From the NCBI GenBank assembly GCA_913056385.1, contig CAJXND010000002.1:47108-111107 (forward strand): a stretch of DNA of 64,000 nucleotides, in the 5' to 3' direction. This DNA comes from an uncultured Ectothiorhodospiraceae bacterium (GTDB lineage Bacteria > Pseudomonadota > Gammaproteobacteria > Nitrococcales > Nitrococcaceae). The position numbers and the translations under genes were made by a program. The notes beneath the pieces are model-generated. The model was not told the DNA's origin and did not search any database. It was given only the letters and a program-made list of their open reading frames with translations. Shown in pieces: positions 5,254 to 56,735 of the stretch; position 1 is the first letter of the stretch; every line of letters starts with the position of its first letter.

Positions 5254-5262
5254 CGTCGCGGC

Positions 5263-5637: not shown

Positions 5638-5696
5638 GACGGCACGATAGCGAGCGGCGAGGGTATGGGGCAAGCCGGGTCGAGGGGCGGCTTGAT

Positions 5697-5725
5697 TTGA
5701 CACCGGCAGGGGGCAATTTTAGCGT
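5697..5725 (+). promoter_or_regulatory. Sigma70-type promoter for alaC-hom-thrC operon
   Basis: TTGACA (5697-5702), 17-nt spacer, TAGCGT (5720-5725); GGAGG RBS before ATG 5763. Confidence 0.6.
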
Positions 5726-5762
5726 TCACCGTTTATCATGACGGGACGCGGAGGTTTTCCGC

Positions 5763-6986: not shown

Positions 6987-7005
6987 AGAAAAGGGAGATA
7001 ACCTC

Positions 7006-9452: not shown

Positions 9453-9456
9453 GTCC

Positions 9457-10473
9457 ATGGCGGGACGCGGCGAGCTGATCTGCCTGGCCCCGGCGCTGCT
9501 GGGTCCTGTGCCGGCCACGCTGGCCGATGCCCTCCCGGCTGCGGGCCCTTTTCCGGTGCTGGAGGCACTGCTTGGCAAGTCCGTCCGGCGCGCGGGATCG
9601 CGTTCCGACGGAGAAGGGCTGCTGTGCGCACTGGCCGAGCCGGCGCCGCCGGTGGGGGGGCTGTTGGCCTCCGGGTTCGGCATCGAGGGGGAGCGGGTCT
9701 GCTACCGCGCCGCACCCACGCATCTGCGCCCGGATCGGGATCGGCTGCTGCTGTTTGCCGGTGATGCTCTCGATTCACCCGCCGCTGAAGCAGAACATAT
9801 TTGCCGTGATTTCAATGAGCTGTTCGCGGAAGATGGAATTTCACTTCAGTTTCGGGATGGTGAATGGCTGCTGATTGCCGAGTCGGCGCCGGGGCCGGAT
9901 CTGCCGCCGCTCTCGGCGGTTGCCGGCCGCTATCTGGATACCGTCATCCCGAACGACGCCGCGGCGCGGCCCTGGCGGAAGCTGCTCAACGAAGTGCAGA
10001 TGTTCCTGCATGACCACCCGGTTAATACCGCTCGACAGTCGCGGGGGGAATTGCCGGTCAACGGACTCTGGTTCTGGGGCGGCGGGTCGGGCAATGACGA
10101 GCGTCTGAATGTGCCGGCGCATGTCATCCATGGTGATGACGCCCTGGCACGGGGACTGGCCCGGAGCAGCAGCGATGTCGAATACATACGGGATCTTCCG
10201 CCTGCCGGCTCGCTGGCGGAAGCCGGCTCGGCGGTATTCGTCTGGCCCGATGCGGAGCGTGCCCTCCTTGGCGGGGATGCGGAGGCGTGGCTGGGCGCCC
10301 TGCAGCGGTTCGAGGGCGGAGTCGCGAGAATCCTCCGTGATCTCGTCTTCGAATACGGCGGTCGGGTTGAGCTTCGCTCGGCCAATGGTTGGACGCACCT
10401 CATCACCCCCGGCGACCGATGGCGATTGTGGCGCCGGCCGCGGGCGCTCAGGGAATGGCTGGTGGTCGAATGA
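9457..10473 (+). CDS. Degenerate phosphoglycerate-mutase-like (ApgM/RpfE-like) protein
   Basis: NEVQMFLHDHPVN..R..RGELPVNGLWFWGGG motif; lies directly upstream of recJ like Xanthomonas rpfE (recalled synteny). Confidence 0.7.
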   Translation: MAGRGELICLAPALLGPVPATLADALPAAGPFPVLEALLGKSVRRAGSRSDGEGLLCALAEPAPPVGGLLASGFGIEGERVCYRAAPTHLRPDRDRLLLFAGDALDSPAAEAEHICRDFNELFAEDGISLQFRDGEWLLIAESAPGPDLPPLSAVAGRYLDTVIPNDAAARPWRKLLNEVQMFLHDHPVNTARQSRGELPVNGLWFWGGGSGNDERLNVPAHVIHGDDALARGLARSSSDVEYIRDLPPAGSLAEAGSAVFVWPDAERALLGGDAEAWLGALQRFEGGVARILRDLVFEYGGRVELRSANGWTHLITPGDRWRLWRRPRALREWLVVE

Positions 10474-12215: not shown

Positions 12216-14293
12216 ACGGGCGATAGTCTGCCCACCATCCGAGGGGTTCCCCCGGCCTGAAGTTCGGCCAGGTCGGCAACCACTTCCACCGCCTCATCCA
12301 GCAGGACATCCGGCAGCGCATCCGGCTCCAGTTCGTCCAGACTCGCGAGGGGCTGGCGCCCGTAGGCAGTCAACTGGGCATTAACGGCGACCAGCCGAGC
12401 GGCCTCGGCTGCATCGATTTCCGCGCGGCGCTCGGCCTCATTGAGTGTTACTTGCGTCCTGTCACGCTCCGATTCGAGGCGGGAGGCCTCGCCTGCCACC
12501 GCCTGGAGTGCAGGATCGAGCCTGAGCCGTTGCTGATGGTGGCGCCGGAGTGTGTTGACCAGTCCGTCGAGCCGGCCTAGACGCACGTAGTCGGCGGAGC
12601 GGATGGTATCCCAGGGCAGGGCGTTATCCGCGGCACGCTCACCCATGTCGTTGCTGGCATGGGGATAGGGCATCTCCAGGTCCGGTGTGACGCCCTCCAG
12701 CTGTGTACTTTCGCCGTTGATCCGGTAGAACTTCGCAATGGTCAGCTTGAGCCGACCGCTGGGCGTCTCCTTGTCACCCACGCCGAAGCGCTCAAGGCCA
12801 ACCAGCGTCTGCACGGTGCCTTTGCCGAAGGTCTGGTCGCCCATGACCACCCCCCGGCCGTAGTCCTGCATGGCCGCCGCGAATATCTCCGAGGCGGATG
12901 CGCTGCGGCCGTCCACGAGCACTCCAAGGGGGCCATCATAGAGGGCGAGTTCACCGGCCGGATCGGTCAGGACCTCACGGCGACCGTTACTGCGATGCAC
13001 CTGCACCACCGGGCCCTGGTCGATGAACAGCCCGGTCATACGTACCGCTTCCTCCAGTGAACCGCCCGCGTTGCCGCGCAAATCGATGACCAGACCGTCG
13101 ATATCCGCGAGTGCCTCGCTAGCAAGCAGTTCGCGGACATCGCGCGTGGTGCTTCTATAGTCCTCATCGCCGGCGTTCGCCGCGCCGAAATCGGCATAGA
13201 AGGCCGGTATCTCGATCACGCCGATGCGTTCCGCGCCGTCTTCCCGCTCCACCTCGCGGACCTCGGCCCGGGCGGCCTGTTCCTCCAGTTCGATGGTGTT
13301 GCGGGTGAGCGTGATCACCCGCTCCCGGGACTCGCTGCCACGCGTGCTCGGGAGAATGCGCAGATGCACTTCCGAGCCCTTGGGTCCGCGGATCAGATCG
13401 ACCACGTCGGCGAGTCGCCAGCCGACGACGTCCTGCATATCATCCGGCGCCTGGCCAACACCGACGATCCGGTCACCGGCCTTGAGCTGACCACTGGTCT
13501 CTGCGGGGCCACCGGCGATGAGCTCCACGATCTCGACGAACTCTCCCTCGCTGCTGAGCAGTGCCCCGATGCCCTCCAGAGAGAGCCGCATGTTGATGTC
13601 GAAGTTCTCGGAGGTGCGCGGTGACATATAGCTGCTGTGGGGGTCGAACTCGCCAGCCCAGGCCGTCATGAAGACCTGGAAGACGTCCTCGGCGGTGTAC
13701 TGCGAGAGGGTCCGGGACAAGCGCTTGTAGCGACTCGCGAGGGATTCCTTGATCTCTTCAACTTCACGGCCATTGAGTTTCTGGGTAAGGGCGTCATTCA
13801 CCACACGCTTGCGCCAGAGTTCGTCGAGGTCTCCGGATGAGCGCACCCAGTCGACATCGGATCGGTCCAGCTCGAGGGTGGCGGCCGTATCGAAATCGAG
13901 CCCCGACGCGAGCACGTCGAGTGCGTAATCGCTTCGTTCGTTCACGCGCTGGCGATAGCGCTCGAAGATGGCATAGGCGGTGTCGAGACGTCCGCTGCTG
14001 ATTTCATCGTCAAGTTGATCACTGCGATCGGCAAACGCCTCCAGGTCCGCCGCGGTGAAGTAGAAGCGCTGCGGATCAAGGGCGTCAAAATAGGCTCGGT
14101 AGACTTCCTCCGAGAGCTGGTCGTTGGTTTGCAGATCGTTGTAGTGGTAGCGGGACAGCAACTCGCCGACCACCTGGCCCGCGCGCTCCTGGAGAGGATC
14201 GGGCTCGATGGCCTCGCCGGCGAGTGACAGGGCGGGCTGCGTGAACAGCAGCGTCATCGCCAGCAGGGCGTGTGTGAATGTGGCTCGGATCAA
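12197..14293 (-). CDS. prc: Carboxy-terminal processing (tail-specific) protease, S41A with PDZ
   Basis: DPHSSY, LEGIGA, IDLRGNAGGSL, SASASEIFA, TFGKGTVQ, TQLEGVTPD; N-terminal signal peptide. Confidence 0.95.
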   Translation of the reverse strand: MIRATFTHALLAMTLLFTQPALSLAGEAIEPDPLQERAGQVVGELLSRYHYNDLQTNDQLSEEVYRAYFDALDPQRFYFTAADLEAFADRSDQLDDEISSGRLDTAYAIFERYRQRVNERSDYALDVLASGLDFDTAATLELDRSDVDWVRSSGDLDELWRKRVVNDALTQKLNGREVEEIKESLASRYKRLSRTLSQYTAEDVFQVFMTAWAGEFDPHSSYMSPRTSENFDINMRLSLEGIGALLSSEGEFVEIVELIAGGPAETSGQLKAGDRIVGVGQAPDDMQDVVGWRLADVVDLIRGPKGSEVHLRILPSTRGSESRERVITLTRNTIELEEQAARAEVREVEREDGAERIGVIEIPAFYADFGAANAGDEDYRSTTRDVRELLASEALADIDGLVIDLRGNAGGSLEEAVRMTGLFIDQGPVVQVHRSNGRREVLTDPAGELALYDGPLGVLVDGRSASASEIFAAAMQDYGRGVVMGDQTFGKGTVQTLVGLERFGVGDKETPSGRLKLTIAKFYRINGESTQLEGVTPDLEMPYPHASNDMGERAADNALPWDTIRSADYVRLGRLDGLVNTLRRHHQQRLRLDPALQAVAGEASRLESERDRTQVTLNEAERRAEIDAAEAARLVAVNAQLTAYGRQPLASLDELEPDALPDVLLDEAVEVVADLAELQAGGTPRMVGRLSPVQAAAR

Positions 14294-44982: not shown

Positions 44983-45973
44983 TCGCTACGCCGGGTTCTG
45001 GAGTCACAATGGCGCCGGTGCGACCCTGCTTGGCCCGCTGGAATGGCTCTTCCGCCAGGCGGTTGCTCGCCGTCGGGCCCGCGCCGGCGCCATCGCACAG
45101 TGGATTGATGCACCCGTGTTGGTGGTGGGGAATGTCAGTGTCGGAGGGACCGGTAAAACGCCATTGGTGCTCTGGCTTGTCGAGACCGCCGTGGAGATGG
45201 GGTTCCGGCCCGGCATCATTCTGCGCGGCCATCGCGGCAGCGCCCGTGGCGTCATGCCGGTCACGGCTGATAGCGATCCCGGTGTCGTCGGCGATGAAGC
45301 CGTACTGCTCGCCCGGCGAGCACCATGCGCGGTCGTGATCGGCGCCGATCGCGTCGCCGCCGGTCGGACGCTGCTCAAGACCGGCGCGGTGGACCTGGTG
45401 ATCAGCGATGACGGGCTGCAGCATTATGCTTTGGGTCGCGATGTGGAGATCGCGGTTGTCGATGCAGACCGCGGCCACGGGAACGGGCGGTGCCTGCCCG
45501 CCGGGCCATTGCGAGAACCACTGAATCGCCTGGATGAGGTCGACCTGGTGTTGGGCAACGGGCAACAGATTAAAGGTTGCGGGGGAATGTTCGAGATCGT
45601 GCCCGGGCTGCTCCAGGCGCTGCCGGGGACGGACGAGGGTGGCGAACCGCCAACATCGGGCTGCGCGGTTCATGCGGTTGCCGGCATCGGTCATCCCGGG
45701 CGTTTCTTTGCCACGCTGGAGGCGATGGGATTCTTCGTCCATGCCCACCCGCTCGGCGATCACCATCATTTCCGTCCCGGGGATCTGCGCTTCGATGACG
45801 ATGCACCGGTCATCGTCACGGAGAAGGACGCGGTAAAATGTCGGGGTATGGCACCCGCGAACAGCTGGTATCTGCCTGTGGCGGCCCGGCCGGACGAGAT
45901 CACTACGGTGCGCCTCGGAGAACTGCTGGCGCTCGCCCGGCGCCGTTTCGTCAACCGCAGGGCAGGCTCATGA
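44972..45973 (+). CDS. lpxK: Tetraacyldisaccharide 4'-kinase
   Basis: VGNVSVGGTGKTP, GDEAVLL, SDDGLQHY, LPAGPLRE, TEKDAVK. Confidence 0.96.
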   Translation: MATDRYAGFWSHNGAGATLLGPLEWLFRQAVARRRARAGAIAQWIDAPVLVVGNVSVGGTGKTPLVLWLVETAVEMGFRPGIILRGHRGSARGVMPVTADSDPGVVGDEAVLLARRAPCAVVIGADRVAAGRTLLKTGAVDLVISDDGLQHYALGRDVEIAVVDADRGHGNGRCLPAGPLREPLNRLDEVDLVLGNGQQIKGCGGMFEIVPGLLQALPGTDEGGEPPTSGCAVHAVAGIGHPGRFFATLEAMGFFVHAHPLGDHHHFRPGDLRFDDDAPVIVTEKDAVKCRGMAPANSWYLPVAARPDEITTVRLGELLALARRRFVNRRAGS

Positions 45974-46725
45974 CTCCGTTCACCGTTATCATTCCGGCAC
46001 GCCACGCCTCGACGCGGCTCCCCGGCAAGCCGCTGCTTCCGCTTGCCGGTCGGCCGGTGATCGAGCATGTCTGGCGCGCGGCGGTCTCGAGTGGTGCCGA
46101 TCGCGTCATTATCGCCACGGATCATGCCGGCATCAGTGACTGCGCAACGGCCTTCGGTGCCGAGGTCTGCATGACCGGAAGCGCTCATCGGAGCGGCACG
46201 GAGCGGATTGCCGAAGTGGTGCGCGCCATCGGGATCGGCGACGACGCGATCATCGTCAATCTCCAGGGCGATGAGCCCCTCATGCCGGCCTCTCTGCTGG
46301 TCCGGGTCGCCGAGACGCTCGCCGAGGCACCGGGATCGGTGATGGCGACCCTCTCGACCCCCCTGATGGATGCTGACGAGTTGCATGACCCCCACACAGT
46401 GAAGCTGGTGACCGGGCACGATGGCCGGGCGCTTTACTTCAGCCGCGCCGCCATTCCCCGGGACCGGCGGGGGCACACGGACTGGCAGATGTCGGTGGCC
46501 CGGCGTCATCTGGGGCTCTATGCCTATCGCGCCGGGTTCCTCAGGCGTTATCCGCTGCTGCCGGAAAGCCCGCTGGAGAATCTCGAGCAACTGGAGCAGC
46601 TGCGCGTTCTGCAGGCCGGGGAACGGATCCAGGTCGGGGAGGTGACGGAGCGACCGGGGCATGGTATCGATACCGAGCGCGATCTCGCCGCCGCAGAGGC
46701 CGCGCTCATCCGACGTTCACGATAG
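45970..46725 (+). CDS. kdsB: 3-deoxy-manno-octulosonate cytidylyltransferase
   Basis: IPARHASTRLPGKPL, SGTERI, NLQGDEP, ALYFSR, HLGLYAYR, EQLEQLR. Confidence 0.97.
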   Translation: MTPFTVIIPARHASTRLPGKPLLPLAGRPVIEHVWRAAVSSGADRVIIATDHAGISDCATAFGAEVCMTGSAHRSGTERIAEVVRAIGIGDDAIIVNLQGDEPLMPASLLVRVAETLAEAPGSVMATLSTPLMDADELHDPHTVKLVTGHDGRALYFSRAAIPRDRRGHTDWQMSVARRHLGLYAYRAGFLRRYPLLPESPLENLEQLEQLRVLQAGERIQVGEVTERPGHGIDTERDLAAAEAALIRRSR

Positions 46726-46735
46726 ACCGGCCGGA

Positions 46736-47650
46736 TTACTTGCAGGCGAGGGTTTCCAGCATGCAGCGCCGGAACGCCTCGACCATCCGGCTTGCCGGGC
46801 TCGCCGTCATGCCGAGATAGAACTGCGTGGCATAAGCGTACTCGCTTGGCAGGAGCTCACGCATCAAACCGTCGCGCACCCAGTTTTCGGCGTAGTGTAT
46901 CGGCAGATAGCCGACATAGCGGCCACTGAGAATCAGCATGGCGGCACTTTCCATGTGACCGACACTGGGCCCGACGCGGCTGTCGTGGTGGCCGAGCATC
47001 GATGGGCCCTTGTAGTTCTTGTCGCAAAAGACGGCCGATTCCAGTGACTCGCGAATGGCCTCGGGATCCATTTCCTCGAATAGGGCATGGTCGCGCCCGC
47101 AATAGAGGCTCTGGACCTCCATGAACAACGAGTCGGCATTGATCGAGTCGTGCTCCGGTTCGACCGGCGTGATAATGAGGTGGTATCGATTATCGACCAA
47201 CCCCTGGGAGAGGTCTTGTGGCGATCCGATGTTAAAGTGCAAACGGACATCCGGCGCGATGTCGGCGAACCGCCTCAGGACCTCGTCGAACTGCAGCCGG
47301 TCGTAGGTAACCAGCGCGTCGACAAGACCCAGATAAAGGTCACCGGACATGTTGCCCCGGACATCCGAAATGACCTCGCGGAAACCCAAAATCGACTCGA
47401 AGAGCGGCCCGAGGCTCTCGTAGATGCGCTCTCCCTCGCGTGTCAGTGCAAAGCCCTTGCGACCGCGTTCACAGAGCGTAAAGCCGAGACGCTCCTCGAG
47501 CTGTTTGAGCTTGATGCTGATGGTCGACAGCGAGAGGCCCAGCGTCTCCTGGGCCGGGGCGAGCCCCTGCGCCTGGACAACGGCCCGGAATATCCGGAGA
47601 AGTTTGAGATCGAAATCGGTGAGGTTCGGGAGGCTCGGGTCGCTTCCCAT
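46736..47650 (-). CDS. LysR-type regulator, GbuR/GpuR-like
   Basis: DLKLLRIF HTH, LCERGRKGFALT, ILSGRYVGYLPIHYA..WV; divergent from the ABC operon. Confidence 0.92.
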   Translation of the reverse strand: MGSDPSLPNLTDFDLKLLRIFRAVVQAQGLAPAQETLGLSLSTISIKLKQLEERLGFTLCERGRKGFALTREGERIYESLGPLFESILGFREVISDVRGNMSGDLYLGLVDALVTYDRLQFDEVLRRFADIAPDVRLHFNIGSPQDLSQGLVDNRYHLIITPVEPEHDSINADSLFMEVQSLYCGRDHALFEEMDPEAIRESLESAVFCDKNYKGPSMLGHHDSRVGPSVGHMESAAMLILSGRYVGYLPIHYAENWVRDGLMRELLPSEYAYATQFYLGMTASPASRMVEAFRRCMLETLACK

Positions 47651-47915
47651 GATTGTCTGCTCCCGGTGATCGGACCCGACGGCGAGTTCTGGCCCGAATC
47701 TCCCTTGCTGCCTGTTATTTCAATATGTTGGTCATGAAGGATTCGGTCAAGCCCGCTTGCGCGTGTCGCCGTTGTCGGCCAGGCATCGCTTTGTTCGACT
47801 CCAAAGCCCGGTTTGCAAGGTGATGATGGTTGGGCGGTTGACGCGCGGAACATACTCAGGTCGTCCCTTGGCGGGATTTACATCAGAAAAGGGGCCTGGC
47901 CCCGGGGGTTCAATC

Positions 47916-48998
47916 ATGTTCGAAGTGAAGAAAACAACCCGATGGGCACTGGCAGCGATGCTCGCTGCCGCGACCATCACCGGCGTATCCACCACGGCGA
48001 CGGCGAAGGAAGAGATCAACGTGGGCGCCTGTGTATCGTGGCCGGGATATTCATTCTTTGAAGTCGTTCGTCAGCAGGACCTGGCGCCCGATTACGATAT
48101 CAACATCTCCATTTTCGAGGACCCGCTCGGCGGGCACGCGGCCCTCGCTACCGGACAGCTCGATATCTACCTCTGCACTGGTGATTACACCCCCGTGGCG
48201 GCAGCCCGGGGCCTCGATGTCACCAATGTCGCCGTTCAGAACCTCGTCTATGGCGTCGACAAGGTGGTCATCGGCCCGGATCTGGAGCCCGAGGATCTCC
48301 GCGGTCAGCGCATCGCCGCGCCCCAGGCCTACATCGGCCAGCTGGTGATGGGACTCTGGCTGGATAGCGTGGGGATCAGCCCGGATGAGGTCACATGGGT
48401 CAACCTCAATGCCGACGAGGCGGTCGGCCCCATGATGTCGGGTGATCTGGGTGCGGCCTACATGTACGAGCCCTGGGTCAATCAGGTGGTCGACAACCTC
48501 GACGGCGCACGGGTGATCGCCGACACCTCGGCACCGGAGCTCATGGAGACGGGCATCTTCATGGACGTCATGTACATGAATACCAATTTCATCGCCGAAC
48601 ACCGTCAGGCGGCGATCGACATGTTGAAGGCGCGATTCGAGGCGACGGCTTACTGGAACGAGCATACCGACGAGGTGAATCAGACCTTCGCGGACTACCT
48701 GCAGTGGTCCAAGGCGGATATCGAGTCGATCATGGGCAGCAACGGCAAGTATCTCGAGGGCGGAATGTATATGCTCGACTTCAATGAGGTCGCCAGGATC
48801 TGCGGCGTCATGGACGGAGAGCCGCCGTTCGGCATCGACAATGGCGCGATGGAGAGCATGGTCGAGCTGACCAACGAGTGGTGGATCAAGCTCGATCTGA
48901 TGGACGAAATGCTCGCCGATCCGAGCGATGCATTCGACTGCAGTCTGGTCGGGGACCTTGCCGCCCAGGGCTACCGTCAGACGTTCTCGGCGCGTTGA
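47916..48998 (+). CDS. ABC transporter substrate-binding protein, NitT/TauT (SsuA/NMT1-like) family
   Basis: Signal peptide ending ATA; SWPGY; YEPW; acidic periplasmic protein; upstream of permease and ATPase. Confidence 0.88.
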   Translation: MFEVKKTTRWALAAMLAAATITGVSTTATAKEEINVGACVSWPGYSFFEVVRQQDLAPDYDINISIFEDPLGGHAALATGQLDIYLCTGDYTPVAAARGLDVTNVAVQNLVYGVDKVVIGPDLEPEDLRGQRIAAPQAYIGQLVMGLWLDSVGISPDEVTWVNLNADEAVGPMMSGDLGAAYMYEPWVNQVVDNLDGARVIADTSAPELMETGIFMDVMYMNTNFIAEHRQAAIDMLKARFEATAYWNEHTDEVNQTFADYLQWSKADIESIMGSNGKYLEGGMYMLDFNEVARICGVMDGEPPFGIDNGAMESMVELTNEWWIKLDLMDEMLADPSDAFDCSLVGDLAAQGYRQTFSAR

Positions 48999-49068
48999 AT
49001 CCCGGGGCCAGGGACGGCCCATCCTCTCAATCCAGAATCATCATGCGAGAATGGGGCGGAGTCTCCCT

Positions 49069-49905
49069 ATGAGTCAGAATCGCCAGAATCCGGTCGGCAC
49101 CAGGGCCCAGCGGGGGCCCTGGCTGGAGTTCCTGCGGCCCATATCCACCCGCGAGAGCGCGCTGCTCGGGCTTGTGATCTGGGTCCTCTTCTTCGTCGGC
49201 TGGGAAGTCGCCGCCTGGCGGGAACTGGTGAACCCACTGCTTCTGCCGCCGCCGGAGCAGGTCCTGGTCTCGCTCTACGATCTGCTGGTGAACCGCGGCT
49301 TCGGCGTGGATATCGGCGTGAGTATCCTGCGCATCCTCGCCAGCTTCGTCGCCGCCTGCATTATTGCCATACCGCTTGGCGTCCTGATGGGCTCCTTTGC
49401 GCGCATCGAAGGACTGTTCAATCCGTTTGTCTCGGCCTGGCGCTACCTGCCGGCTCCGGCCTTCATCCCGATTCTGCTGGCCTGGTTCGGCACCGGTGAA
49501 GAACCCAAGCTGGCGTTGCTCTTCCTCGGTGTGATCTGGTTTCTGATCACGCTGGTCATGGACCATACGCGCAACGTTCGCGACGAGCTCATCGAGACCG
49601 CCATGACCCTCGGTGCGAGGCGATGGCAGGTGCTCTGGACGGTGATCGTGCCGGCGGTCCTGCCCAACATCCTGATCGCCATGCGTCAGATGCTCGCCAT
49701 CGCCTGGACCTATCTCGTGATCGCCGAGATCATCGCCGCGACGAACGGCATCGGTGCGGTCATGTGGCGGGCGCGCCGATTCCTGGATACCGACGAGATT
49801 CTCGCCGGCATCCTGGTGATCGGCGTGCTGGGACTGGCGTTCGATCTGTTGTTCCGCTGGCTCTACCGAATTCTGTTTCCCTATCTCGATCGCAACGGCC
49901 GCTGA
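49069..49905 (+). CDS. ABC transporter permease, TauC/SsuC-like
   Basis: LLPPPEQV, SILRI, PAPAFIP, EAA-like IETAMTLGA, WTYLVIAEIIAA. Confidence 0.93.
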   Translation: MSQNRQNPVGTRAQRGPWLEFLRPISTRESALLGLVIWVLFFVGWEVAAWRELVNPLLLPPPEQVLVSLYDLLVNRGFGVDIGVSILRILASFVAACIIAIPLGVLMGSFARIEGLFNPFVSAWRYLPAPAFIPILLAWFGTGEEPKLALLFLGVIWFLITLVMDHTRNVRDELIETAMTLGARRWQVLWTVIVPAVLPNILIAMRQMLAIAWTYLVIAEIIAATNGIGAVMWRARRFLDTDEILAGILVIGVLGLAFDLLFRWLYRILFPYLDRNGR

Positions 49906-49921
49906 GCCGGGGAGCGCATGC

Positions 49922-50770
49922 ATGACACTCCAGGCCCCGACAACCGCTGCCGCCCCGTCAGGACAGCCCCATCTGGCGCTGGAGGGCGTTGGCAAGGTCT
50001 TCGAGCTCCGGCGCAACGAGCACATCGAAGCCATCAAGGATGTCAGTTTCACCATGCAGGAGAACGAGGTCTGCGTGATTCTCGGCCCCTCGGGTTGCGG
50101 CAAGTCCACGGTCCTGCGGATGGTGGCGGGTCTTGAGAGCCCCAGCGCCGGCCAGCTCCTGCTGGATGGCAACCCGATTCATGGTCCGGGTCGCGAGCGG
50201 GGCATGGTCTTCCAGAGCTATACCTCGTTCGACTGGTTGACCGTGCAGGACAACGTCGAATACGGGATGCGGCTCAATGGCGCCGGCGCACGGGAGCGCC
50301 GGGAACGCGCCGCCGAGTTCATCGAGCTGGTGGGTCTGACAAAGTTCGCCAATGCCTATCCACGGCAGTTGTCGGGGGGCATGAAACAGCGCGTCGCGAT
50401 CGCAAGAACGCTGGCCAATGATCCAGCGCTGCTGCTGATGGACGAGCCCTTCGGTGCACTCGATGCGCAGACACGCTGGCATATGCAGGAGCTGATGATG
50501 AGTGTCGTGGAGTCCACGCGGACATCGGTCCTGATGGTGACGCATGATATCGAAGAGGCCATTTTCCTCGCCGACCGGATTGAGTTCATGTCGCGCCATC
50601 CGGGCAGCGTGCTGGAGGAGATCAAGCCCACGTTCAAGCAGGGGCAGCGGTTCACGCGCAAGGAACAGTTGCTCGATTTCCCCGAATACGGCGATCTTGA
50701 GCGGCACGTCATGAAACTGATGCGGCAGCAGGGCGGTGACGATGCAACACCGGCCGAGCAGGGCGCCTGA
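49922..50770 (+). CDS. ABC transporter ATP-binding protein, TauB/SsuB-like
   Basis: GPSGCGKS, LSGGMKQR, MDEPFGALD, THDIEEA. Confidence 0.95.
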   Translation: MTLQAPTTAAAPSGQPHLALEGVGKVFELRRNEHIEAIKDVSFTMQENEVCVILGPSGCGKSTVLRMVAGLESPSAGQLLLDGNPIHGPGRERGMVFQSYTSFDWLTVQDNVEYGMRLNGAGARERRERAAEFIELVGLTKFANAYPRQLSGGMKQRVAIARTLANDPALLLMDEPFGALDAQTRWHMQELMMSVVESTRTSVLMVTHDIEEAIFLADRIEFMSRHPGSVLEEIKPTFKQGQRFTRKEQLLDFPEYGDLERHVMKLMRQQGGDDATPAEQGA

Positions 50771-50801
50771 GACGATCATGGACAACAGACAGGGAGGCGG
50801 A

Positions 50802-51581
50802 ATGCCGGCAGGACCGACATGTATCTGGGAGATGACCTGGCCGGAGTTTGCCGAACAGGTGGACCGCAATCCGGTGGTCCTGCTCCCCACCGGCATGACC
50901 GAGCAGCACGGCCCCCATCTCCCGCTCGGAGTGGATTTCCAGCTTCCCCTCGCGATTGCGGATCTGGTGGCCCGGGAGATCGACGGGCTCATCGCGCCTC
51001 CGTTGCACTATGGCTACAAATCCATGCCCCGGACGGGCGGCGGGCCGGGGTTTCCTGGCTCGCTCGGGCTGGACGGCGCCACCCTCAGTGCGATCCTCCG
51101 GGATCTGATCCGCGAGCTGGCCCGCTCGGGAGTCCGGCGAATCGTGGTGCTTGACGGCCATCTGGAGAATCGCTGGTTTCTGACCGAGGGGATCGATCTC
51201 GCGGTCCGCGAGCTGGGTGAACGCTCCCCTCGCGTGGTCTGCATGCAGCACTGGGACTTTCTCGACGACGAGACCATGACAAGGGTTTTCCCGGAAGGCT
51301 ATGCCGGGATCGACAAGGAGCATGCGGCGATCCTTGAGACATCGCTGATGATGCATTTCTACCCGCAGCATGTCCGCCTCGATCGGATACCGGATGAGCC
51401 GCCGCTCGCGGCGCCGCCCTATGACACCTGGCCGGCGCGGCCTGAGTGGATCCCGCCGGGGGGTGCGCTGACCTCGGCAAAGCCGGCCACGGCGGCCAAG
51501 GGCGAATGCGTGGCGGACTGCTATCGACGCCGAATCAGCGCTGCATTGCGCGCGGAATTCGATCTGGGAGAGGGGCCATGA
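50802..51581 (+). CDS. Creatininase-family cyclic amidohydrolase
   Basis: TEQHGPH, VD, GYKS..TGGG..FPG, DGHLEN, EHAAILETS metal ligands intact; GGAGG RBS before ATG 50802. Confidence 0.93.
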   Translation: MPAGPTCIWEMTWPEFAEQVDRNPVVLLPTGMTEQHGPHLPLGVDFQLPLAIADLVAREIDGLIAPPLHYGYKSMPRTGGGPGFPGSLGLDGATLSAILRDLIRELARSGVRRIVVLDGHLENRWFLTEGIDLAVRELGERSPRVVCMQHWDFLDDETMTRVFPEGYAGIDKEHAAILETSLMMHFYPQHVRLDRIPDEPPLAAPPYDTWPARPEWIPPGGALTSAKPATAAKGECVADCYRRRISAALRAEFDLGEGP

Positions 51582-52345
51582 ACCCGGGATCACGCCATGT
51601 CCTCGTGACCGGCGCGAGTCGCGGCATTGGCCGCGGCGTGGCGGAGGCATTCGCGCGGGAAGGGCATGCGCTGACCCTGCTGGCCGACGATGAATCGGTG
51701 CATTCCGTCGCGGCGCAGATCGCCCGGGAGATCGGCGCGGAGGTCGAGGCCCGATGCTGTGACATCACCGATGCGGACGCGCTGGCCAGGGCCTTTAACG
51801 ATATCCGACCGATCGATGTGCTGATCAGTAATGCGGGGATCGAATTGCCCACGCCGCTGGATGATGGGAGCGCCGAGACGCACCGGCGTTTCGCCCGGAT
51901 TATCGATGTCAACGTGACCGGCACCTGGCAGGTCATGCGGGCCGCCCTGCCGCATCTGATGGATGGCGGGAGTGTGGTGGTGACCGCCTCGATCTGGGGG
52001 CGAACCGCCGTGCCCGGGTTTTCCGCCTATGTGGCCTCGAAGCATGCACTCATCGGCCTGACCCGGACCTGGTCCCGCGAACTTGCCGCGCGCGGCATCC
52101 GCGTCAATGCGGTCTGCCCGGGATGGGTCCGTACCGAGGCCTCGATGGCCTCACTCGACTGGATGGCCGAACAGGAGGGTCGCTCCGTGGGTGAGCTGCT
52201 CGCCGAAATCGAGGCGGGACAGAGCCTGCCCGGGCTCATGGAGCCGGACGATATCGCCGGGTTGTATGTCTATCTCGCCTCATCGGCCGCCCACGGGCTG
52301 ACCGGGCAGGCCATTCCCGTCGACCGCGGCGAGGTGATGGCATGA
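51578..52345 (+). CDS. Short-chain dehydrogenase/reductase (SDR 1)
   Basis: TGASRGIG, SNAG, AS, YVASK, VCPGWV; ATGA overlap with amidohydrolase. Confidence 0.94.
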   Translation: MNPGSRHVLVTGASRGIGRGVAEAFAREGHALTLLADDESVHSVAAQIAREIGAEVEARCCDITDADALARAFNDIRPIDVLISNAGIELPTPLDDGSAETHRRFARIIDVNVTGTWQVMRAALPHLMDGGSVVVTASIWGRTAVPGFSAYVASKHALIGLTRTWSRELAARGIRVNAVCPGWVRTEASMASLDWMAEQEGRSVGELLAEIEAGQSLPGLMEPDDIAGLYVYLASSAAHGLTGQAIPVDRGEVMA

Positions 52346-53094
52346 GCGGGCGCCTCGAGGGCATTCGGGCCGTGGTCACCGGTGGCTCGCGCGGGATCGG
52401 TCGTGCCTGTGCCATCGCCATGGCCACCGCTGGCGCGAAGGTCGTCATCATCTACCAGGGCAGCGAACAAGCGGCGACCGCGGTCGTCGACGAGATGCGC
52501 GCAATCTCACCGGGACACCGGTCACTGCGCGCCGACGTCTCCTCGGAACCGGAGGTCGTCGAGGCCATGACGACAGGCACTCGGTACCTCGGCGGGCTGG
52601 ACGTCCTTGTCAACTGCGCGGGGGTCCTCGAGGAACGACCGCTGCTGGAGACGGATGCCGCCGCCTTTGACCGGATCATCGCGGTCAATCTGCGCGGTGC
52701 GTTCCTGGTCGGTCGCGAGGCGGTACGCCACATGATGGCAGGGCCCGGGCATGGTCAGATCATCAACATCGGGTCGGATCTGGCGGATCTCGGGCGCCCC
52801 CGGAACAGCGCGTACTGTGCCTCCAAGGCAGGCATCGCCGCGCTGACACGCTGCTGGGCGCGCGAGTTCGGGCCCATGATCCGCGTCAACACCGTGGCCC
52901 CCGGACCCATCGCAACGGACATGCTGAGCGCAGAGACCATGAGCGAGGAGAGCCTTGCGGAGGAGACCCGGACTCCGCTCGGGCGGATCGGGGAACCGCG
53001 CGAGGTTGCCGACTTCGTTGTTTTTCTTGCGGGCCCGGGAGGGTCGTTCACCACCGGCCAGACGCTAGGCGTCAATGGCGGCAGCACAATGTAA
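52342..53094 (+). CDS. Short-chain dehydrogenase/reductase (SDR 2)
   Basis: TGGSRGIG, NCAG, GS, YCASK, VAPGPI, TGQTL; ATGA overlap with SDR 1. Confidence 0.94.
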   Translation: MSGRLEGIRAVVTGGSRGIGRACAIAMATAGAKVVIIYQGSEQAATAVVDEMRAISPGHRSLRADVSSEPEVVEAMTTGTRYLGGLDVLVNCAGVLEERPLLETDAAAFDRIIAVNLRGAFLVGREAVRHMMAGPGHGQIINIGSDLADLGRPRNSAYCASKAGIAALTRCWAREFGPMIRVNTVAPGPIATDMLSAETMSEESLAEETRTPLGRIGEPREVADFVVFLAGPGGSFTTGQTLGVNGGSTM

Positions 53095-53142
53095 AGCAAC
53101 GACGGCACGATCCACGCCCACCGTTACCAGGAGAGCAGTTCA

Positions 53143-54114
53143 ATGAAGCGCCCGGATTCCCATTTCCGACCCATCAGCGGCTCGGCCCTGCCACGCTTCG
53201 CGGGGCCCTCGACATTCATGCGTTTGCCCATGGTGGAGGATCCGGCGGAGGTCGATATTGCCCTGGTCGGGTTACCCTGGGACGGGGGCACGACGAACCG
53301 CGCCGGTGCGCGTCATGGCCCTCGCGAAATCCGCAATCAGTCGAGCATGATGCGCCTGGTGCATCAGGCGAGCCGCATCGCCCCCTATGATCTGTGCCGA
53401 GTGGCCGATCTCGGGGATGTTCCCGTCAACCCCATCGACCTGTCCGATACCCTCGAGCGGGCCACGGCGTTCTTCCAGCGCATCTGCGCGGCTGGCGCCA
53501 CACCACTCACGGCCGGTGGCGATCATCTGGGATCGTTGCCCGCGCTCCGCGCGGTAGCCGCCCAGCGCCCGGTCGGCCTGGTGCAGTTCGACTCGCATTC
53601 CGATACCAACGACAGCTATTTTGGCGAAGCCAATCGCTTTACCCATGGAACGCCGTTCCGACGGGGCATCGAGGAAGGGCTGCTCGACCCGAAGCGGATG
53701 GTTCAGATCGGCATCCGCGGATCACTCTATTCCGAATCCGATCTCGACTACGCCCTTGAGCAGGGCATTCGTGTGATCGAGATAGAGGAGTACTTTGATC
53801 TCGGGGTTGAGGCGGTCATCGCCGAAATCCATCGTGTCATCGGCACCGGACCGGTCTACGCGACGTTCGATGTCGATGTGCTTGATCCCGTCTATGCGCC
53901 GGGCACGGGAACGCCGGAAGTCGGCGGGATGAGCACGGTCGAGGCGCAGCGGCTGCTGCGGGGTCTGCATGGGCTCGATGTGGTGGGTGCGGATGTCATG
54001 GAGGTGTCGCCTCCATTCGACTCCGGTTATCTCACGGCACTCACCGGCGCCACGATGCTCTTCGAGCTGCTCTGCGTCCTGGCAGGCGCCATCGCCGACC
54101 GCCGCGGTCGCTGA
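53143..54114 (+). CDS. Ureohydrolase (agmatinase family), 3-guanidinopropionase GpuA-like
   Basis: PRFAG, PWDGGTTNRAGARHGPREIR, GGDH, DSHSD, HGTPF, FDVDVLDP, EVSP; closely resembles P. aeruginosa GpuA as recalled. Confidence 0.92.
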   Translation: MKRPDSHFRPISGSALPRFAGPSTFMRLPMVEDPAEVDIALVGLPWDGGTTNRAGARHGPREIRNQSSMMRLVHQASRIAPYDLCRVADLGDVPVNPIDLSDTLERATAFFQRICAAGATPLTAGGDHLGSLPALRAVAAQRPVGLVQFDSHSDTNDSYFGEANRFTHGTPFRRGIEEGLLDPKRMVQIGIRGSLYSESDLDYALEQGIRVIEIEEYFDLGVEAVIAEIHRVIGTGPVYATFDVDVLDPVYAPGTGTPEVGGMSTVEAQRLLRGLHGLDVVGADVMEVSPPFDSGYLTALTGATMLFELLCVLAGAIADRRGR

Positions 54115-54122
54115 GCCGGGCA

Positions 54123-54152
54123 TAGCGGACGGGGCCCGTACCCCATCCGCTA
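54123..54152. terminator. Hairpin between convergent ureohydrolase and rne stops
   Basis: TAGCGGA-C-GGGG...CCCC-A-TCCGCTA, 11 bp; weak U-tract. Confidence 0.45.
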
Positions 54153-54164
54153 CACGACGCGGAA

Positions 54165-56735
54165 TCAGTCAGCGCCGGGCTGTTCCTCCGCGGAATCCCC
54201 ATCGGCCGATGCCGCTGGCAGACGCGGCCTTCCCGGCCAGCGCCGGGGATCATCCGTTCTGACAGAGCGGGTCGCCGGGGCGTCCTCGGCCTCCTTCGAT
54301 GCGCTGATCTCCGCGGATTCACTGGTGCTGGCAGTCTCAGGCTTACGACTCCGTCCGTTGGACCGGCGCCGTGTCCGGCTGCGGGATTTCTGCGCCCCGT
54401 CATCATCCGCCACGGTCTTGCTCGCGTCGGGTCGCTCCGGCTCGGGCGTTGCTGCTTTCTCTGCCTCTTCTACCGCATCGGCCGCCTGAGCCTCCGGCCC
54501 GCCCTCATCAACCGTTGCCGAGCCGCCTGTCTCGGTGCTCTGGCCATTGCCGCTGCGACGACGTCGACGCCCGCCGCGCCGACCACGACGGCTCCGGGAA
54601 CCGCTCCCGGTACCGGCCGCCGAAGCGGACTGACGACCCTCGGGAGCCTCGGCAGAGGCCTTCTCGGCATGCCCGGCGGATATTCCGTTCGGCCCGGCAT
54701 CATCGGTCTTTTGCGTTCCTTCCGCCGCAGCACGGGCGTTCTCGCCATCCGCCCGTCCGCCGGTAGCCTTGCCATTACCGCTGGTCGAGGTACGCGAGCG
54801 CCGCTGACCACCGCGGCGGCCACTCTGGCCATTGCCACCGCTACTGCCGCTCCGGCGGCGGCGGTCGCCGCTCCCGCGGGTGCGCTCACGCGATTCACCG
54901 TCGCCGCCGCCGCTGGACGGCGCAGTCTCTGTCTCGGCCGGCGTGGCCTTGCCATCGGTCGACGCCTTGCCGGTCGTCTCGGCTTCGCCACTGACCAGGC
55001 GCTTGAGCCAGCCGATCAGGCCCGGTCCACGGTCCGCTTCGGCGGCAGCGCCGTTCCCGGAAACGATTGAGGCGCTGGTGGCCGGCGCGCTCTCGGCCGG
55101 GGCGCTCTCGGCCCTGGGCGTTGGGGTCGGAGCCGGCGTGGCCGGACTGACGCCGCTCACCACCGGCTTCTCGGCGCGGGGACGTTCCGCCGTCAGCAAT
55201 TCCTCCGCGCGACTCGGCTGACCGTCCTCACCGGCCATCTGATAACTCGTCTCGGTCTCGGTCTCCTCATCCGTACGCACCCGCTGCAGCTCGTAGTGCG
55301 GCGTTTCCAGGTTGCGATTGGGGATGAGGATGACGTCGATCCCGTTGCGGGTCTCGATGGTGTCGAGGATGCCCCGCTTTTCGTTCAGCAGGAAAGTGGC
55401 CACATCAACCGGCAGCTGCGCGACCACCTTGCCGGTTTTGTCCTTCATGGCCTCTTCCTCGATGATCCGCAGCACCGAGAGGGCCAGCGATTCCACGCTG
55501 CGCACCGTCCCCTGGCCGCTGCAGCGGCTGCAGAGCTCGAGGGAGGATTCGCCGAGAGAGGAGCGCAGGCGCTGGCGCGACATCTCGAGCAGGCCGAACC
55601 GGGAAATCCGGCCAACCTGGACACGCGCCCGGTCCTGCTTGACCGCCTCGCGCAGCCGGTTTTCAACCTCCCGCTGGTTCCGGTTGGGGCCCATGTCGAT
55701 GAAGTCGATCACGATCAGGCCGCCAAGATCGCGCAGGCGCAGTTGGCGGGCGATCTCCTCGGCGGCTTCGACATTGGTCTTGAGTGCGGTCTCCTCGATG
55801 TCCGCGCCCTTGGTGGCGCGGGCGGAGTTGATGTCGATCGAGATCAGCGCTTCGGTATGGTCGATGACGATCACGCCACCGCTGGGCAGCCGGACCTCGC
55901 GCTGGAAGGCCGATTCGATCTGGCTCTCGATCTGATAGCGGCTGAACAGCGGCACCTTGTCATCGTAGAACTTGAGCTTCTGCAGGTTGTGGGGCATCAC
56001 CTGCTGGACGAACTCACGAGCGCGCTCGTAGACATCGCGGTCATCAATGAGGATTTCGCCGATATCCGAGCGCAGGTAGTCGCGCAGGGCCCGGATGATG
56101 ACATTGCTCTCCTGGTAGATCAGGAAGGGCGCCGACCGGGTCTCCGCCGCCTTCTGCACGGCGCTCCAGAGATTGCGCAGGTAGTCCAGATCCCACTGCA
56201 GCTCCTCGGCATTGCGCCCGACGCCGGCGGTGCGCACGATCAGGCCCATGCCCTCCGGCACATCGAGTTCCTTGAGCGCGTCGCGGATCTCGTTGCGCTC
56301 GGGCCCCTCGATGCGCCGCGAGACGCCGCCGGCCCGCGGATTGTTGGGCATCAGGACCAGGTAGCGGCCAGCGAGGCTGATGAAAGTGGTCAGTGCAGCG
56401 CCCTTGTTGCCGCGCTCCTCCTTCTCCACCTGGACCACGACCTCGAGGCCTTCCTTGATGACATCGGCGATCGACGCCTTGGCAGGATCGATATCGCCAC
56501 TGAAGTACTCGCGGGCGATCTCCTTGAAGGGCAGAAAGCCGTGGCGCTCCGCACCGTACTGGACGAAGGCGGCCTCGAGGCTGGGCTCGACCCGCGTGAT
56601 CCGTCCCTTGTAGATGTTGGCTTTTTTACGTTCCCGTGCCGGTGTCTCGATATCCAGGTCGTAGAGTGACTGGCCGTCGACCAGTGCAACGCGCAGCTCT
56701 TCGGGCTGGGTTGCATTGACGAGCATTCTTTTCAT
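54165..56735 (-). CDS. rne: Ribonuclease E
   Basis: [42 protein letters not shown], Zn-link CSRCSG, membrane helix GLIGWLKRL, Arg-rich disordered CTD. Confidence 0.98.

What the first reader, a model, noticed from the sequence alone, without database searches (positions are those of the whole stretch)
50802..51581. Creatininase-clade enzyme with intact metal site but remodelled substrate pocket
Metal/catalytic residues are all present (TEQH, VD, GH-x-E, EH, ETS), as is the GYKS...GGG..FPG segment of true creatininases. Against P. putida CrnA as I recall it (GHYEN, SYWDF, GWDIEH), this protein has GHLEN, QHWDF and GIDKEH: the Tyr121 and Trp174 equivalents become Leu and Ile while Trp154 is kept. 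Those aromatics line the creatine pocket, so a different ring size or substitution is likely.
Basis: partly seen in the sequence, partly recalled or inferred. Interest (0 to 1): 0.65.

Follow-up and report, generated by a model that had tools for sequence, protein, structure and literature searches.

The report
Mis-named creatininase in guanidine-ring operon
An enzyme that annotation pipelines would call creatininase lacks the tryptophan that clamps creatinine. It sits in a conserved, undescribed operon with an importer, two dehydrogenases and a 3-guanidinopropionase-type urea-releasing enzyme, so it most likely opens a different, probably six-membered, guanidine ring to harvest nitrogen.

Summary
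The ORF at 50802-51581 (+) encodes a 259-aa creatininase-family protein, 47% identical to P. putida CrnA. All metal and catalytic residues are intact. Tyr121 is Leu, Trp174 is Ile, Ile176 is Lys, and Trp154 is kept.

The two changes sit at different evolutionary depths. Loss of Trp174 defines a sister group of about 150 leaves next to true CrnA. Tyr121 to Leu/Val is private to a 7-member subclade.

Genomic context separates the groups. Trp174 enzymes sit beside creatinase or lone transporters. Non-Trp enzymes sit beside one or two SDR dehydrogenases (20 of 24 loci against 0 of 13).

Here the gene lies in a cassette of LysR, ABC importer, creatininase-like enzyme, SDR, SDR and ureohydrolase. 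The cassette recurs in halophilic and marine Proteobacteria. It is inserted between kdsB and rne in only 2 of 20 congeners. The ureohydrolase is orthologous to P. aeruginosa 3-guanidinopropionase. The genome has urease but no creatinase.

Best reading: a cyclic acyl-guanidine hydrolase, probably acting on the six-membered lactam of 3-guanidinopropionate, in an undescribed nitrogen-scavenging pathway. The substrate is inferred, not shown. NCBIfam's creatininase "equivalog" model scores both groups equally, so the name is unreliable.

The parts
46736..47650 (-). Divergent LysR-family regulator of the cassette
   Evidence: Pfam HTH_1 and LysR_substrate. It matches no named NCBIfam regulator above cut-off. 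Homologues of 59-62% identity hold the same position in L016, L017 and L109, and it is 98% identical in G009.
47916..48998 (+). Periplasmic substrate-binding protein of a NitT/TauT-type ABC importer (NMT1/SsuA family), with a signal peptide
   Evidence: Pfam NMT1 and NMT1_2. SsuA_fam scores 81 bits, below its cut-off. The only PDB match is TauA at E=1e-6. It is 60-77% identical in the cassettes of L013, L016, L017, L019 and L109.
49069..49905 (+). ABC permease
   Evidence: Pfam BPD_transp_1. It is TauC/SaoP-like but below the cut-offs. The start was checked.
49922..50770 (+). ABC ATPase
   Evidence: Pfam ABC_tran. It is TauB/SaoA-like but below the cut-offs.
50802..51581 (+). Creatininase-family binuclear-metal cyclic amidohydrolase lacking Trp174 and Tyr121 (the finding). 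Predicted to hydrolyse a cyclic acyl-guanidine.
   Evidence: Residues are T78, H120, L121, E122, W151, D152, I170, D171, K172, E173, H174 and E179.
51578..52345 (+). SDR1, a classical short-chain dehydrogenase. It has an Asp after strand beta-2, which suggests NAD preference. Its start overlaps the upstream stop as ATGA.
   Evidence: Pfam adh_short_C2. The best named matches are 3-hydroxybutyrate dehydrogenase and FabG subfamilies, below their cut-offs. Ser/Tyr-x3-Lys is conserved in all 14 cassette orthologues aligned.
52342..53094 (+). SDR2, a classical short-chain dehydrogenase. Its start also overlaps the upstream stop as ATGA. It is the most constant partner of the non-Trp174 creatininase-like enzymes.
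   Evidence: Pfam adh_short_C2. FabG and glucose-1-dehydrogenase subfamilies score 195-202 bits against cut-offs of 215-222. SDR2-like genes alone flank the enzyme in L111-L113 and L115. The catalytic triad is conserved.
53143..54114 (+). Arginase-fold ureohydrolase orthologous to 3-guanidinopropionase GpuA
   Evidence: PDB 3nip/3niq (P. aeruginosa 3-guanidinopropionase) at E=2.7e-139, about 65% identity. Guanidinobutyrase 3nio scores 1e-94. In a tree, PaGpuA nests inside the cassette-linked ureohydrolases.

Best explanation
The protein is a creatininase-fold, two-metal cyclic amidohydrolase whose physiological substrate is not creatinine. It probably acts on another cyclic acyl-guanidine.

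The most probable substrate is the six-membered lactam of 3-guanidinopropionate, 2-amino-5,6-dihydropyrimidin-4(3H)-one (5,6-dihydroisocytosine), or a close derivative.

Proposed pathway:
1. The LysR-controlled ABC importer takes up a guanidine-ring or guanidino-alcohol compound.
2. One or both SDRs bring it to the lactam oxidation state. This could be oxidation of a cyclic carbinolamine (the ring form of 3-guanidinopropanal), in the way glucose dehydrogenase makes a lactone. It could instead be reduction of an unsaturated 2-aminopyrimidin-4-one ring.
3. The creatininase-like enzyme hydrolyses the ring amide with the same Glu34/His36/Asp45/His120/Glu183 metal site and Glu122/His178 chemistry as CrnA. 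Its pocket is widened by Trp174 to Ile and Tyr121 to Leu.
4. The GpuA orthologue splits the linear 3-guanidinopropionate into beta-alanine and urea.
5. The genome's urease releases the nitrogen.

Shown here: the fold, the intact catalytic residues, the substitutions and their clade distribution, operon conservation, GpuA orthology, absence of creatinase and presence of urease.

Inferred: the identity of the ring, the role and direction of the SDRs, and the order of steps.
For: (1) Catalytic machinery is intact and the fold equals CrnA.

(2) Trp174 is present in 12 of 12 members of the CrnA clade (support 0.995) and in 70 of 99 more distant family members. It is absent from 148 of 149 members of the sister group that holds the query. 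Positions that separate the two groups (76, 82, 118, 167, 174, 179, 180, 221) cluster in the 74-84 loop and the 174-180 flap beside catalytic His178.

(3) Context splits the same way. SDR genes lie next to 20 of 24 non-Trp174 loci and next to none of 13 Trp174 loci (Fisher p=7e-7, not corrected for phylogeny). Creatinase (1CHM, E=7e-169) lies next to Trp174 enzymes only.

(4) The same importer-hydrolase-SDR-SDR-ureohydrolase cassette is found at 54-77% protein identity in Modicisalibacter, Oricola, two other gammaproteobacterial genomes and metagenome contigs.

(5) The ureohydrolase is orthologous to characterised 3-guanidinopropionase. PaGpuA branches inside the cassette-linked clade. 3-guanidinopropionate is exactly what opening the six-membered acyl-guanidine ring gives.

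(6) The genome has urease. It has no creatinase: only two remote M24 proteins, 24-27% identical to creatinase.

(7) A related arginase-fold guanidino-acid hydrolase does not cleave creatine or guanidinoacetate (PMC9772407).

(8) The gene is under strong purifying selection, dN/dS 0.06.

(9) Replacing two bulky aromatics with Ile and Leu enlarges rather than shrinks the pocket (inference).
Against: No activity data exist for any member of the non-Trp174 group.

The protein passes NCBIfam's creatininase equivalog cut-off (314 against 235 bits) and keeps Trp154.

One non-Trp174 locus (Pseudomonas sp. AL03, L023) has an NCS1 permease and no SDR, like canonical creatinine loci. So loss of Trp174 alone need not abolish creatinine use.

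Monophyly of the non-Trp174 group has weak support (0.37-0.62).

Neither dihydroisocytosine, 3-guanidinopropanal/-propanol nor free isocytosine is a documented abundant natural product, so the environmental source is unknown.

Two SDRs are more than the simplest scheme needs.

Some cassette variants lack the ureohydrolase (Salipiger L018, Hyphomicrobium L029).

Pocket geometry was not measured, because no model coordinates or docking were available.
Confidence: 0.5

Rival explanations
1. It is an ordinary creatininase (creatinine to creatine). The pocket changes are neutral drift or tuning. Creatine is then cleaved by the GpuA-like enzyme acting as a non-M24 creatinase, or is dealt with elsewhere.
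For: TIGR04448 equivalog scores 314 bits against a 235 cut-off. Identity to CrnA is 47%, with TM 0.93. All catalytic residues and Trp154 are kept. One non-Trp174 relative (L023) sits next to an NCS1 permease, as true creatininases do.
Against: TIGR04448 does not discriminate. SDR-linked and creatinase-linked proteins all score 314-379 bits. There is no creatinase in the genome. Creatinase adjacency is seen only for Trp174 enzymes. The two conserved, translationally coupled SDRs would have no role. No arginase-fold enzyme is known to cleave creatine, and human AGMAT does not. Positions separating the clades lie around the flap and His178.
Confidence: 0.15
2. It is a glycocyamidine (unmethylated five-membered ring) hydrolase in a 2-guanidinoethanol pathway. 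SDR1 makes guanidinoacetaldehyde. SDR2 oxidises its cyclic carbinolamine to glycocyamidine. The hydrolase gives guanidinoacetate. The ureohydrolase acts as guanidinoacetase, yielding glycine and urea.
For: This scheme uses all four enzymes once. Guanidinoethanol-based phosphagens occur in marine annelids (established knowledge). The cassette occurs in marine and saline bacteria. The gene for guanidinoacetase has, to my knowledge, not been assigned.
Against: The ureohydrolase is orthologous to 3-guanidinopropionase, with PaGpuA nested among the cassette enzymes. Glycocyamidine is smaller than creatinine, so removing Trp174 and Tyr121 is not what one would expect. The related hydrolase AGMAT does not accept guanidinoacetate.
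Confidence: 0.15
3. It belongs to a hydrolytic, Rut-like route for an aromatic 2-aminopyrimidin-4-one (isocytosine-type) ring. The hydrolase opens the unsaturated ring to 3-guanidinoacrylate. The ureohydrolase releases urea and aminoacrylate. Aminoacrylate decays to malonic semialdehyde, which the SDRs reduce to 3-hydroxypropionate, as YdfG/RutE do.
For: Cassette variants carry Rut-like partners. These are a RutB/BiuH-like isochorismatase in Stutzerimonas L022, a RutC/RidA-like protein in L013, and an NtaA/DmoA (RutA-related) FMN monooxygenase in Salipiger L018. SDR1 resembles 3-hydroxy-acid dehydrogenases. Other creatininase-family enzymes bind 2-amino-4-oxopyrimidines (BrbF/ArfB formamidases, PMC9478397).
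Against: Direct hydrolysis of an aromatic pyrimidinone ring is chemically hard, which is why known routes first reduce or oxygenate it. The SDRs are the most constant neighbours of the hydrolase even where no ureohydrolase is present, which suggests they act next to it rather than three steps later.
Confidence: 0.1
4. The substrate is not a guanidine ring at all. The hydrolase cleaves another lactam or a diketone made by the SDRs (IolN-like logic). The ureohydrolase acts on a separate guanidino side chain.
For: The creatininase family includes C-C hydrolase IolN, peptidase MftE and formamidases. Some variants lack the ureohydrolase.
Against: The protein is far closer to CrnA (47% identity, sister clade) than to IolN or MftE, which score 67 and 83 bits, well under their cut-offs. 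The ureohydrolase is tightly linked in at least seven independent cassettes.
Confidence: 0.1

Closest known systems
Creatinine amidohydrolase CrnA of Pseudomonas putida (EC 3.5.2.10; PDB 1J2T, 1Q3K, 1V7Z, 3A6D-L)
   Same: Same fold (TM 0.93, rmsd 1.4 A) and 47% identity. The metal ligands are identical (E34, H36, D45, H120, E183), as are Glu122, His178, Trp154 and the GYKS...GGG..FPG loop.
   Different: Trp174 is Ile, Tyr121 is Leu, Ile176 is Lys and Ser78 is Thr. Gly179-Gly180 is Ala-Ala. It belongs to a sister clade whose members sit next to SDRs and a GpuA-type ureohydrolase instead of creatinase or an NCS1 permease.
P. aeruginosa gpuPAR system: 3-guanidinopropionase GpuA (PDB 3NIP/3NIQ) with LysR regulator GpuR
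   Same: The cassette's last enzyme is a GpuA orthologue, about 65% identical, with PaGpuA nested among the cassette enzymes. A divergent LysR regulator is present. The Tyr that I recall as GpuA's specificity residue (Tyr157) aligns with a Tyr here (alignment; the role of that residue is from memory).
   Different: In P. aeruginosa the substrate is imported as the linear acid. Here an ABC importer, a ring hydrolase and two SDRs precede the enzyme, which implies a cyclic or more reduced precursor. Similarity of the regulator to GpuR could not be tested.
Reductive pyrimidine catabolism (dihydropyrimidine dehydrogenase, dihydropyrimidinase, beta-ureidopropionase)
   Same: The proposed logic runs step for step in parallel. 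A redox step sets up a saturated six-membered ring. A cyclic amidohydrolase opens N3-C4. A third hydrolase removes the C2 unit and leaves beta-alanine.
   Different: All three enzymes are non-homologous to those of the pyrimidine route (SDRs, creatininase fold, arginase fold). The C2 unit leaves as urea from a guanidino group rather than as CO2 and NH3 from a ureido group. This analogy is inference only.
Creatininase-family formamidases BrbF/ArfB (riboflavin biosynthesis; PMC9478397)
   Same: They are a precedent that proteins annotated as creatininase have other substrates, and that the fold accepts 2-amino-4-oxopyrimidine compounds.
   Different: They are distant clades and hydrolyse an exocyclic formamide, not a ring amide.

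Membership tests
Creatininase superfamily (Pfam PF02633) | Significant match to the family model, and the creatininase fold | tested here: met
   188 bits against a 31 cut-off. The AlphaFold model has TM 0.93 to 1J2T and 1Q3K.
Creatininase superfamily (Pfam PF02633) | Binuclear metal ligands Glu34, His36, Asp45, His120 and Glu183, plus Glu122 and His178 | tested here: met
   All are conserved in the alignment with CrnA.
True creatinine amidohydrolase (CrnA, EC 3.5.2.10) | NCBIfam TIGR04448 equivalog score above cut-off | tested here: met
   314 against 235 bits. The model is not discriminating, though: SDR-linked and creatinase-linked clades both score 314-379 bits.
True creatinine amidohydrolase (CrnA, EC 3.5.2.10) | Aromatic substrate clamp: Trp174 (flap), Trp154 and Tyr/Phe121 | tested here: not met
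   Trp154 is kept. Trp174 is Ile170 and Tyr121 is Leu121. All 12 members of the CrnA clade have Trp174 and Tyr/Phe121. That these residues contact creatine is recalled from Yoshimoto 2004 and Yamashita 2010, and is supported only by the existence of the W174F, W154F and W154A structures.
True creatinine amidohydrolase (CrnA, EC 3.5.2.10) | Placement inside the clade of verified or creatinase-linked enzymes | tested here: not met
   The query falls in the sister group. The CrnA clade (support 0.995) excludes it.
True creatinine amidohydrolase (CrnA, EC 3.5.2.10) | Partner creatinase (M24 family) to use the product creatine | tested here: not met
   No creatinase is in the cassette. In the 98.8%-complete genome the best hits are 24-27% identical M24 proteins, DoeA-like and DddP-like and far below their cut-offs. 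Positive control: creatinase lies next to the Trp174 enzymes in L037, L038 and L118.
True creatinine amidohydrolase (CrnA, EC 3.5.2.10) | Hydrolysis of creatinine to creatine | not testable with these tools
   This needs an enzyme assay.
Other characterised creatininase-family functions (MftE, IolN) | Score above the equivalog cut-off | tested here: not met
   MftE scores 83.5 against 172. IolN scores 67.4 against 245.
Importer-hydrolase-SDR-SDR-GpuA cassette (unnamed, uncharacterised) | Co-linear ABC importer, non-Trp174 creatininase-like enzyme, SDR1-type, SDR2-type and GpuA-type ureohydrolase | tested here: met
   The window has all of them in order. The same order is seen in L016, L017, L019, L109 and L124, partly in L013 and L110, and rearranged in L027 and L033.

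The most novel reading that the evidence does not exclude
The non-Trp174 'creatininases' are a new enzyme activity: hydrolases for six-membered cyclic acyl-guanidines (dihydroisocytosine type). They form the core of an undescribed nitrogen-scavenging pathway that mirrors reductive pyrimidine catabolism with three unrelated folds (SDR, creatininase fold, arginase fold) and ends in beta-alanine and urea. If so, most proteins named 'creatininase' by TIGR04448 in Proteobacteria and Cyanobacteria are misnamed, and an unrecognised guanidine-ring metabolite circulates in saline and marine habitats.
Probability: 0.3. Interest if true: 0.75.

Novelty: new variant of a known kind. Interest (0 to 1): 0.6.

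Why it matters
Guanidine-compound metabolism in bacteria is being rewritten. Guanidine hydrolase, guanidine carboxylase and the re-assignment of human 'agmatinase' are recent examples. This cassette would add a ring-opening branch that no paper in the searched library describes.

There is also a practical point. NCBIfam's creatininase 'equivalog' gives equal scores to creatinase-linked and SDR/GpuA-linked clades. In a 400-genome sample of the class, all 9 close homologues were of the non-Trp174 kind. Many database 'creatininases', and inferences of creatinine use in marine, sponge and saline microbiomes, may therefore be wrong.

The enzyme pair also offers a natural experiment on how a two-residue clamp (Trp174 and Tyr121) sets ring specificity in an enzyme used in clinical creatinine assays.

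Tried and rejected
- Literature: ten full-text searches found no description of this cassette or of non-Trp174 enzymes. They covered creatininase with Trp174/Tyr121, glycocyamidine, agmatinase/SDR, 3-guanidinopropionate, guanidinopropionase and cyclic guanidine. PDB codes 9FE6/9FEK proved unrelated to each other; 9FEK is the comammox guanidinase.
- Riboswitch control: no Rfam match at E<=1 in 45500-54500, so there is no guanidine riboswitch.
- Promoter and terminator scan: counts equal those of shuffled sequence, so it is uninformative.
- Pterin or other SDR-specific clues: the SDRs' best PDB and NCBIfam matches are generic (FabG, 3-hydroxybutyrate, glucose and gluconate dehydrogenases). No pteridine reductase is among the strong hits. 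A pterin substrate was therefore not pursued.
- Substrate-binding protein: only a remote TauA match, so no ligand could be inferred.
It was useful for contrast but not for the close clade.
- Greedy ORF calling in high-GC loci first hid the creatinase next to L037. This was corrected with the ORF listing and a PDB search.
- Pocket volume and docking were not possible because model coordinates are not exposed.
- Similarity of the LysR regulator to P. aeruginosa GpuR could not be tested because no sequence was at hand.

Full report
**Observation.** The plus-strand ORF at 50802-51581 is open and encodes 259 aa. Its ATG is preceded by AGGGAGG. Its TGA overlaps the ATG of the next gene. It matches Pfam Creatininase (188 bits). 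P. putida creatininase structures are the best PDB hits (E about 1e-70).

In CrnA numbering, all metal and catalytic residues (E34, H36, D45, H120, E122, H178, E183) and Trp154 are kept. Tyr121 is Leu, Trp174 is Ile, Ile176 is Lys and Ser78 is Thr.

An AlphaFold model (pLDDT 90.6) superposes on CrnA with TM 0.93 and rmsd 1.4 A. Its two least confident stretches are the 71-90 loop and the 161-180 flap that carry the changed residues. Against the orthologue in a sister genome, dN/dS is 0.06 at dS 0.45, and the pocket residues are identical.

**How special are the substitutions?** I aligned 249 family members: the 120 closest database proteins, 50%-identity cluster representatives, proteins from fetched loci, and CrnA.

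- CrnA falls in a 12-leaf clade (support 0.995) in which every member has Trp174 and Tyr/Phe121.
- The query falls in a sister assemblage of about 150 leaves in which 148 of 149 lack Trp174 (Ile 96, Phe 24, Val 15, others). The backbone support for this assemblage is weak (0.37-0.62).
- In the remaining, more distant family, 70 of 99 members have Trp. Trp174 is therefore ancestral and was lost once or a few times.
- Positions that separate the CrnA clade from this group are 76, 82, 118, 167, 174, 179, 180 and 221. They lie in the GYKS...GGG loop and in the flap and His178 segment.
- Tyr121 to Leu/Val, with Ser78 to Thr and Leu176 to Met/Lys, is confined to a 7-member subclade (support 1.0) that includes the window protein.

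**Context.** The gene is the fifth of eight in a compact unit:
- divergent LysR (46736-47650, minus strand);
- NMT1/SsuA-type binding protein, permease and ATPase (47916-50770);
- the hydrolase;
- two classical SDRs joined by ATGA overlaps (51578-53094);
- an arginase-fold ureohydrolase (53143-54114).

The same cassette, in the same order, occurs at 54-77% protein identity in several places. These are Modicisalibacter ilicicola, Oricola nitratireducens, two further gammaproteobacterial genomes and several metagenome contigs. A rearranged form occurs in Rhizobiales. Variants replace the ureohydrolase. Salipiger has an NtaA/DmoA FMN monooxygenase. Stutzerimonas has a desaturase-like protein, a BiuH/RutB-like isochorismatase and a lactonase-like MBL protein. 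The hydrolase-SDR core persists in all of them.

Across all loci where neighbours could be read, SDR genes flank 20 of 24 non-Trp174 enzymes and 0 of 13 Trp174 enzymes (p=7e-7, not corrected for relatedness). A bona fide creatinase (E=7e-169 to 1CHM) lies next to Trp174 enzymes in Arthrobacter, Terrabacter and a Pseudomonas-like contig. It lies next to no non-Trp174 enzyme.

Both SDRs keep Ser/Tyr/Lys in all 14 cassettes aligned, so both are probably active.

**The last enzyme.** The ureohydrolase matches P. aeruginosa 3-guanidinopropionase (3NIP) at E=3e-139, about 65% identity. It matches guanidinobutyrase at 1e-94. In a small tree rooted on GbuA, PaGpuA branches inside the cassette-linked enzymes. 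It is sister to the gammaproteobacterial ones and internal to the alphaproteobacterial ones. The cassette enzymes are therefore GpuA orthologues.

Pipelines would call this protein agmatinase (TIGR01230: 177 against 174 bits). That label is known to be unreliable for this branch. The related human enzyme hydrolyses linear guanidino acids but not creatine or guanidinoacetate (PMC9772407).

**Genome level.** The window's genome (1.95 Mb, 98.8% complete) has urease. It has no creatinase. The only Creatinase_N hits are a DoeA-like and a DddP-like M24 protein, far below any cut-off and 24-27% identical to creatinase.

The cassette is accessory. Only 2 of 20 same-genus genomes have it. In the closest relative without it, kdsB and rne are 74 bp apart, exactly where the 7.4-kb cassette sits here. 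In a 400-genome sample of the class, only 10 genomes (counting the window's own) have a close homologue. All 9 others are of the non-Trp174 kind.

**Interpretation.** Three things are shown:
- a catalytically intact creatininase-fold enzyme with a changed clamp;
- a clade-wide correlation between that change and SDR/GpuA neighbours instead of creatinase;
- an orthologue of 3-guanidinopropionase at the end of the operon.

The inference runs as follows. Opening the amide of a cyclic acyl-guanidine gives a linear guanidino acid. If that acid is 3-guanidinopropionate, the ring is the six-membered 2-amino-5,6-dihydropyrimidin-4(3H)-one. It is one carbon larger than glycocyamidine or creatinine, which agrees with two bulky aromatics being replaced by Ile and Leu.

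The SDRs most simply bring an imported precursor to the lactam oxidation state. One way is to oxidise a cyclic carbinolamine, as hemiacetal dehydrogenases and lactonases work together in sugar and pyridoxal catabolism. The other is to reduce an unsaturated 2-aminopyrimidinone. Urea then goes to urease. I put 0.5 on 'a non-creatinine cyclic acyl-guanidine feeding GpuA' and about 0.3 on the specific six-membered ring.

The rivals are: a plain creatininase (0.15), a glycocyamidine/guanidinoethanol route (0.15), a hydrolytic Rut-like route on isocytosine-type rings with the SDRs as malonic-semialdehyde reductases (0.1), and a non-guanidine substrate (0.1).

**Comparison with the known.** The enzyme works like CrnA: same fold, metals and acid/base residues. 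It fails three membership tests for true creatininase, namely the aromatic clamp, clade placement and a creatinase partner. It passes the TIGR04448 cut-off. That model does not discriminate, however, because creatinase-linked and SDR-linked proteins score 314-379 bits alike.

There is a published precedent for annotated creatininases that do something else: the formamidase BrbF, whose substrate carries a 2-amino-4-oxopyrimidine ring (PMC9478397). Ten literature searches found no description of this cassette. Earlier notes of this scan reached a similar 'undescribed cyclic-guanidine operon' reading for this and another genome. I treated them as leads and re-derived the evidence here.

**Verdict.** This is a real, conserved, selected enzyme. 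It is a new variant of a known enzyme kind inside an undescribed pathway. The substrate remains an inference that a handful of enzyme assays would settle.

Noticed in passing
window 46726-54164, compared with L119 (G012) and L124 (G009): The whole 7.4-kb cassette is an insertion between kdsB and rne. The closest relative without it has a 74-bp kdsB-rne spacer. Between the two carriers, cassette proteins are 89-98% identical while the flanking KdsB and Rne are 86-87% identical. That hints at recent transfer or stronger constraint. No mobility genes were seen.
   Followed up: partly
Homologues P0024-P0090 and L020: A large, mostly alphaproteobacterial and marine subclade of the non-Trp174 group has the metal ligand His120 replaced by Asn (SNYWEIEL signature). 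It keeps the same cassette (for example Oricola L019 and Salipiger L018). This suggests altered metal content or affinity.
   Followed up: no
G000:C1:81387-82106 (L001), outside the window: A second, distant creatininase-family paralogue, about 30% identical, lacks the 174-177 segment and Glu122. It is present in most genomes of the genus, unlike the cassette. Its function is unknown.
   Followed up: no
L022 (Stutzerimonas stutzeri 4C29) 1989-12714; similar in L114 and L043: A different cluster is built around the same hydrolase-SDR-SDR core. It holds an aldo-keto reductase, an NMT1 binding protein, a membrane fatty-acid-desaturase-like di-iron protein, two SDRs, an EamA protein, a Cys78/Phe174 creatininase-like enzyme, a BiuH/RutB-like isochorismatase, a pyridoxolactonase/AHL-lactonase-like MBL protein, and an ABC permease and ATPase.
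   Followed up: partly
L018 (Salipiger sp. PrR002) 6622-7935: An NtaA/DmoA-family FMN monooxygenase (427 bits, above cut-off) is inserted between the ABC ATPase and the creatininase-like gene. This cassette has no ureohydrolase.
   Followed up: no
L027 9811-10725 and L033 10984-11871: The Rhizobiales versions of the cassette carry a second, divergent arginase-family gene (about 34% identity) directly after the GpuA-like one.
   Followed up: no
L013 3244-4755: In one metagenomic cassette, a PuuC/aminoaldehyde-type aldehyde dehydrogenase and a GntR regulator replace LysR directly upstream of the binding protein. This is a weak hint that guanidino-aldehydes are involved.
   Followed up: no
NCBIfam TIGR04448: The 'equivalog' model for creatininase scores creatinase-linked Trp174 enzymes (328-379 bits) and SDR-linked non-Trp174 enzymes (314-373 bits) alike. 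It cannot separate the two groups.
   Followed up: yes
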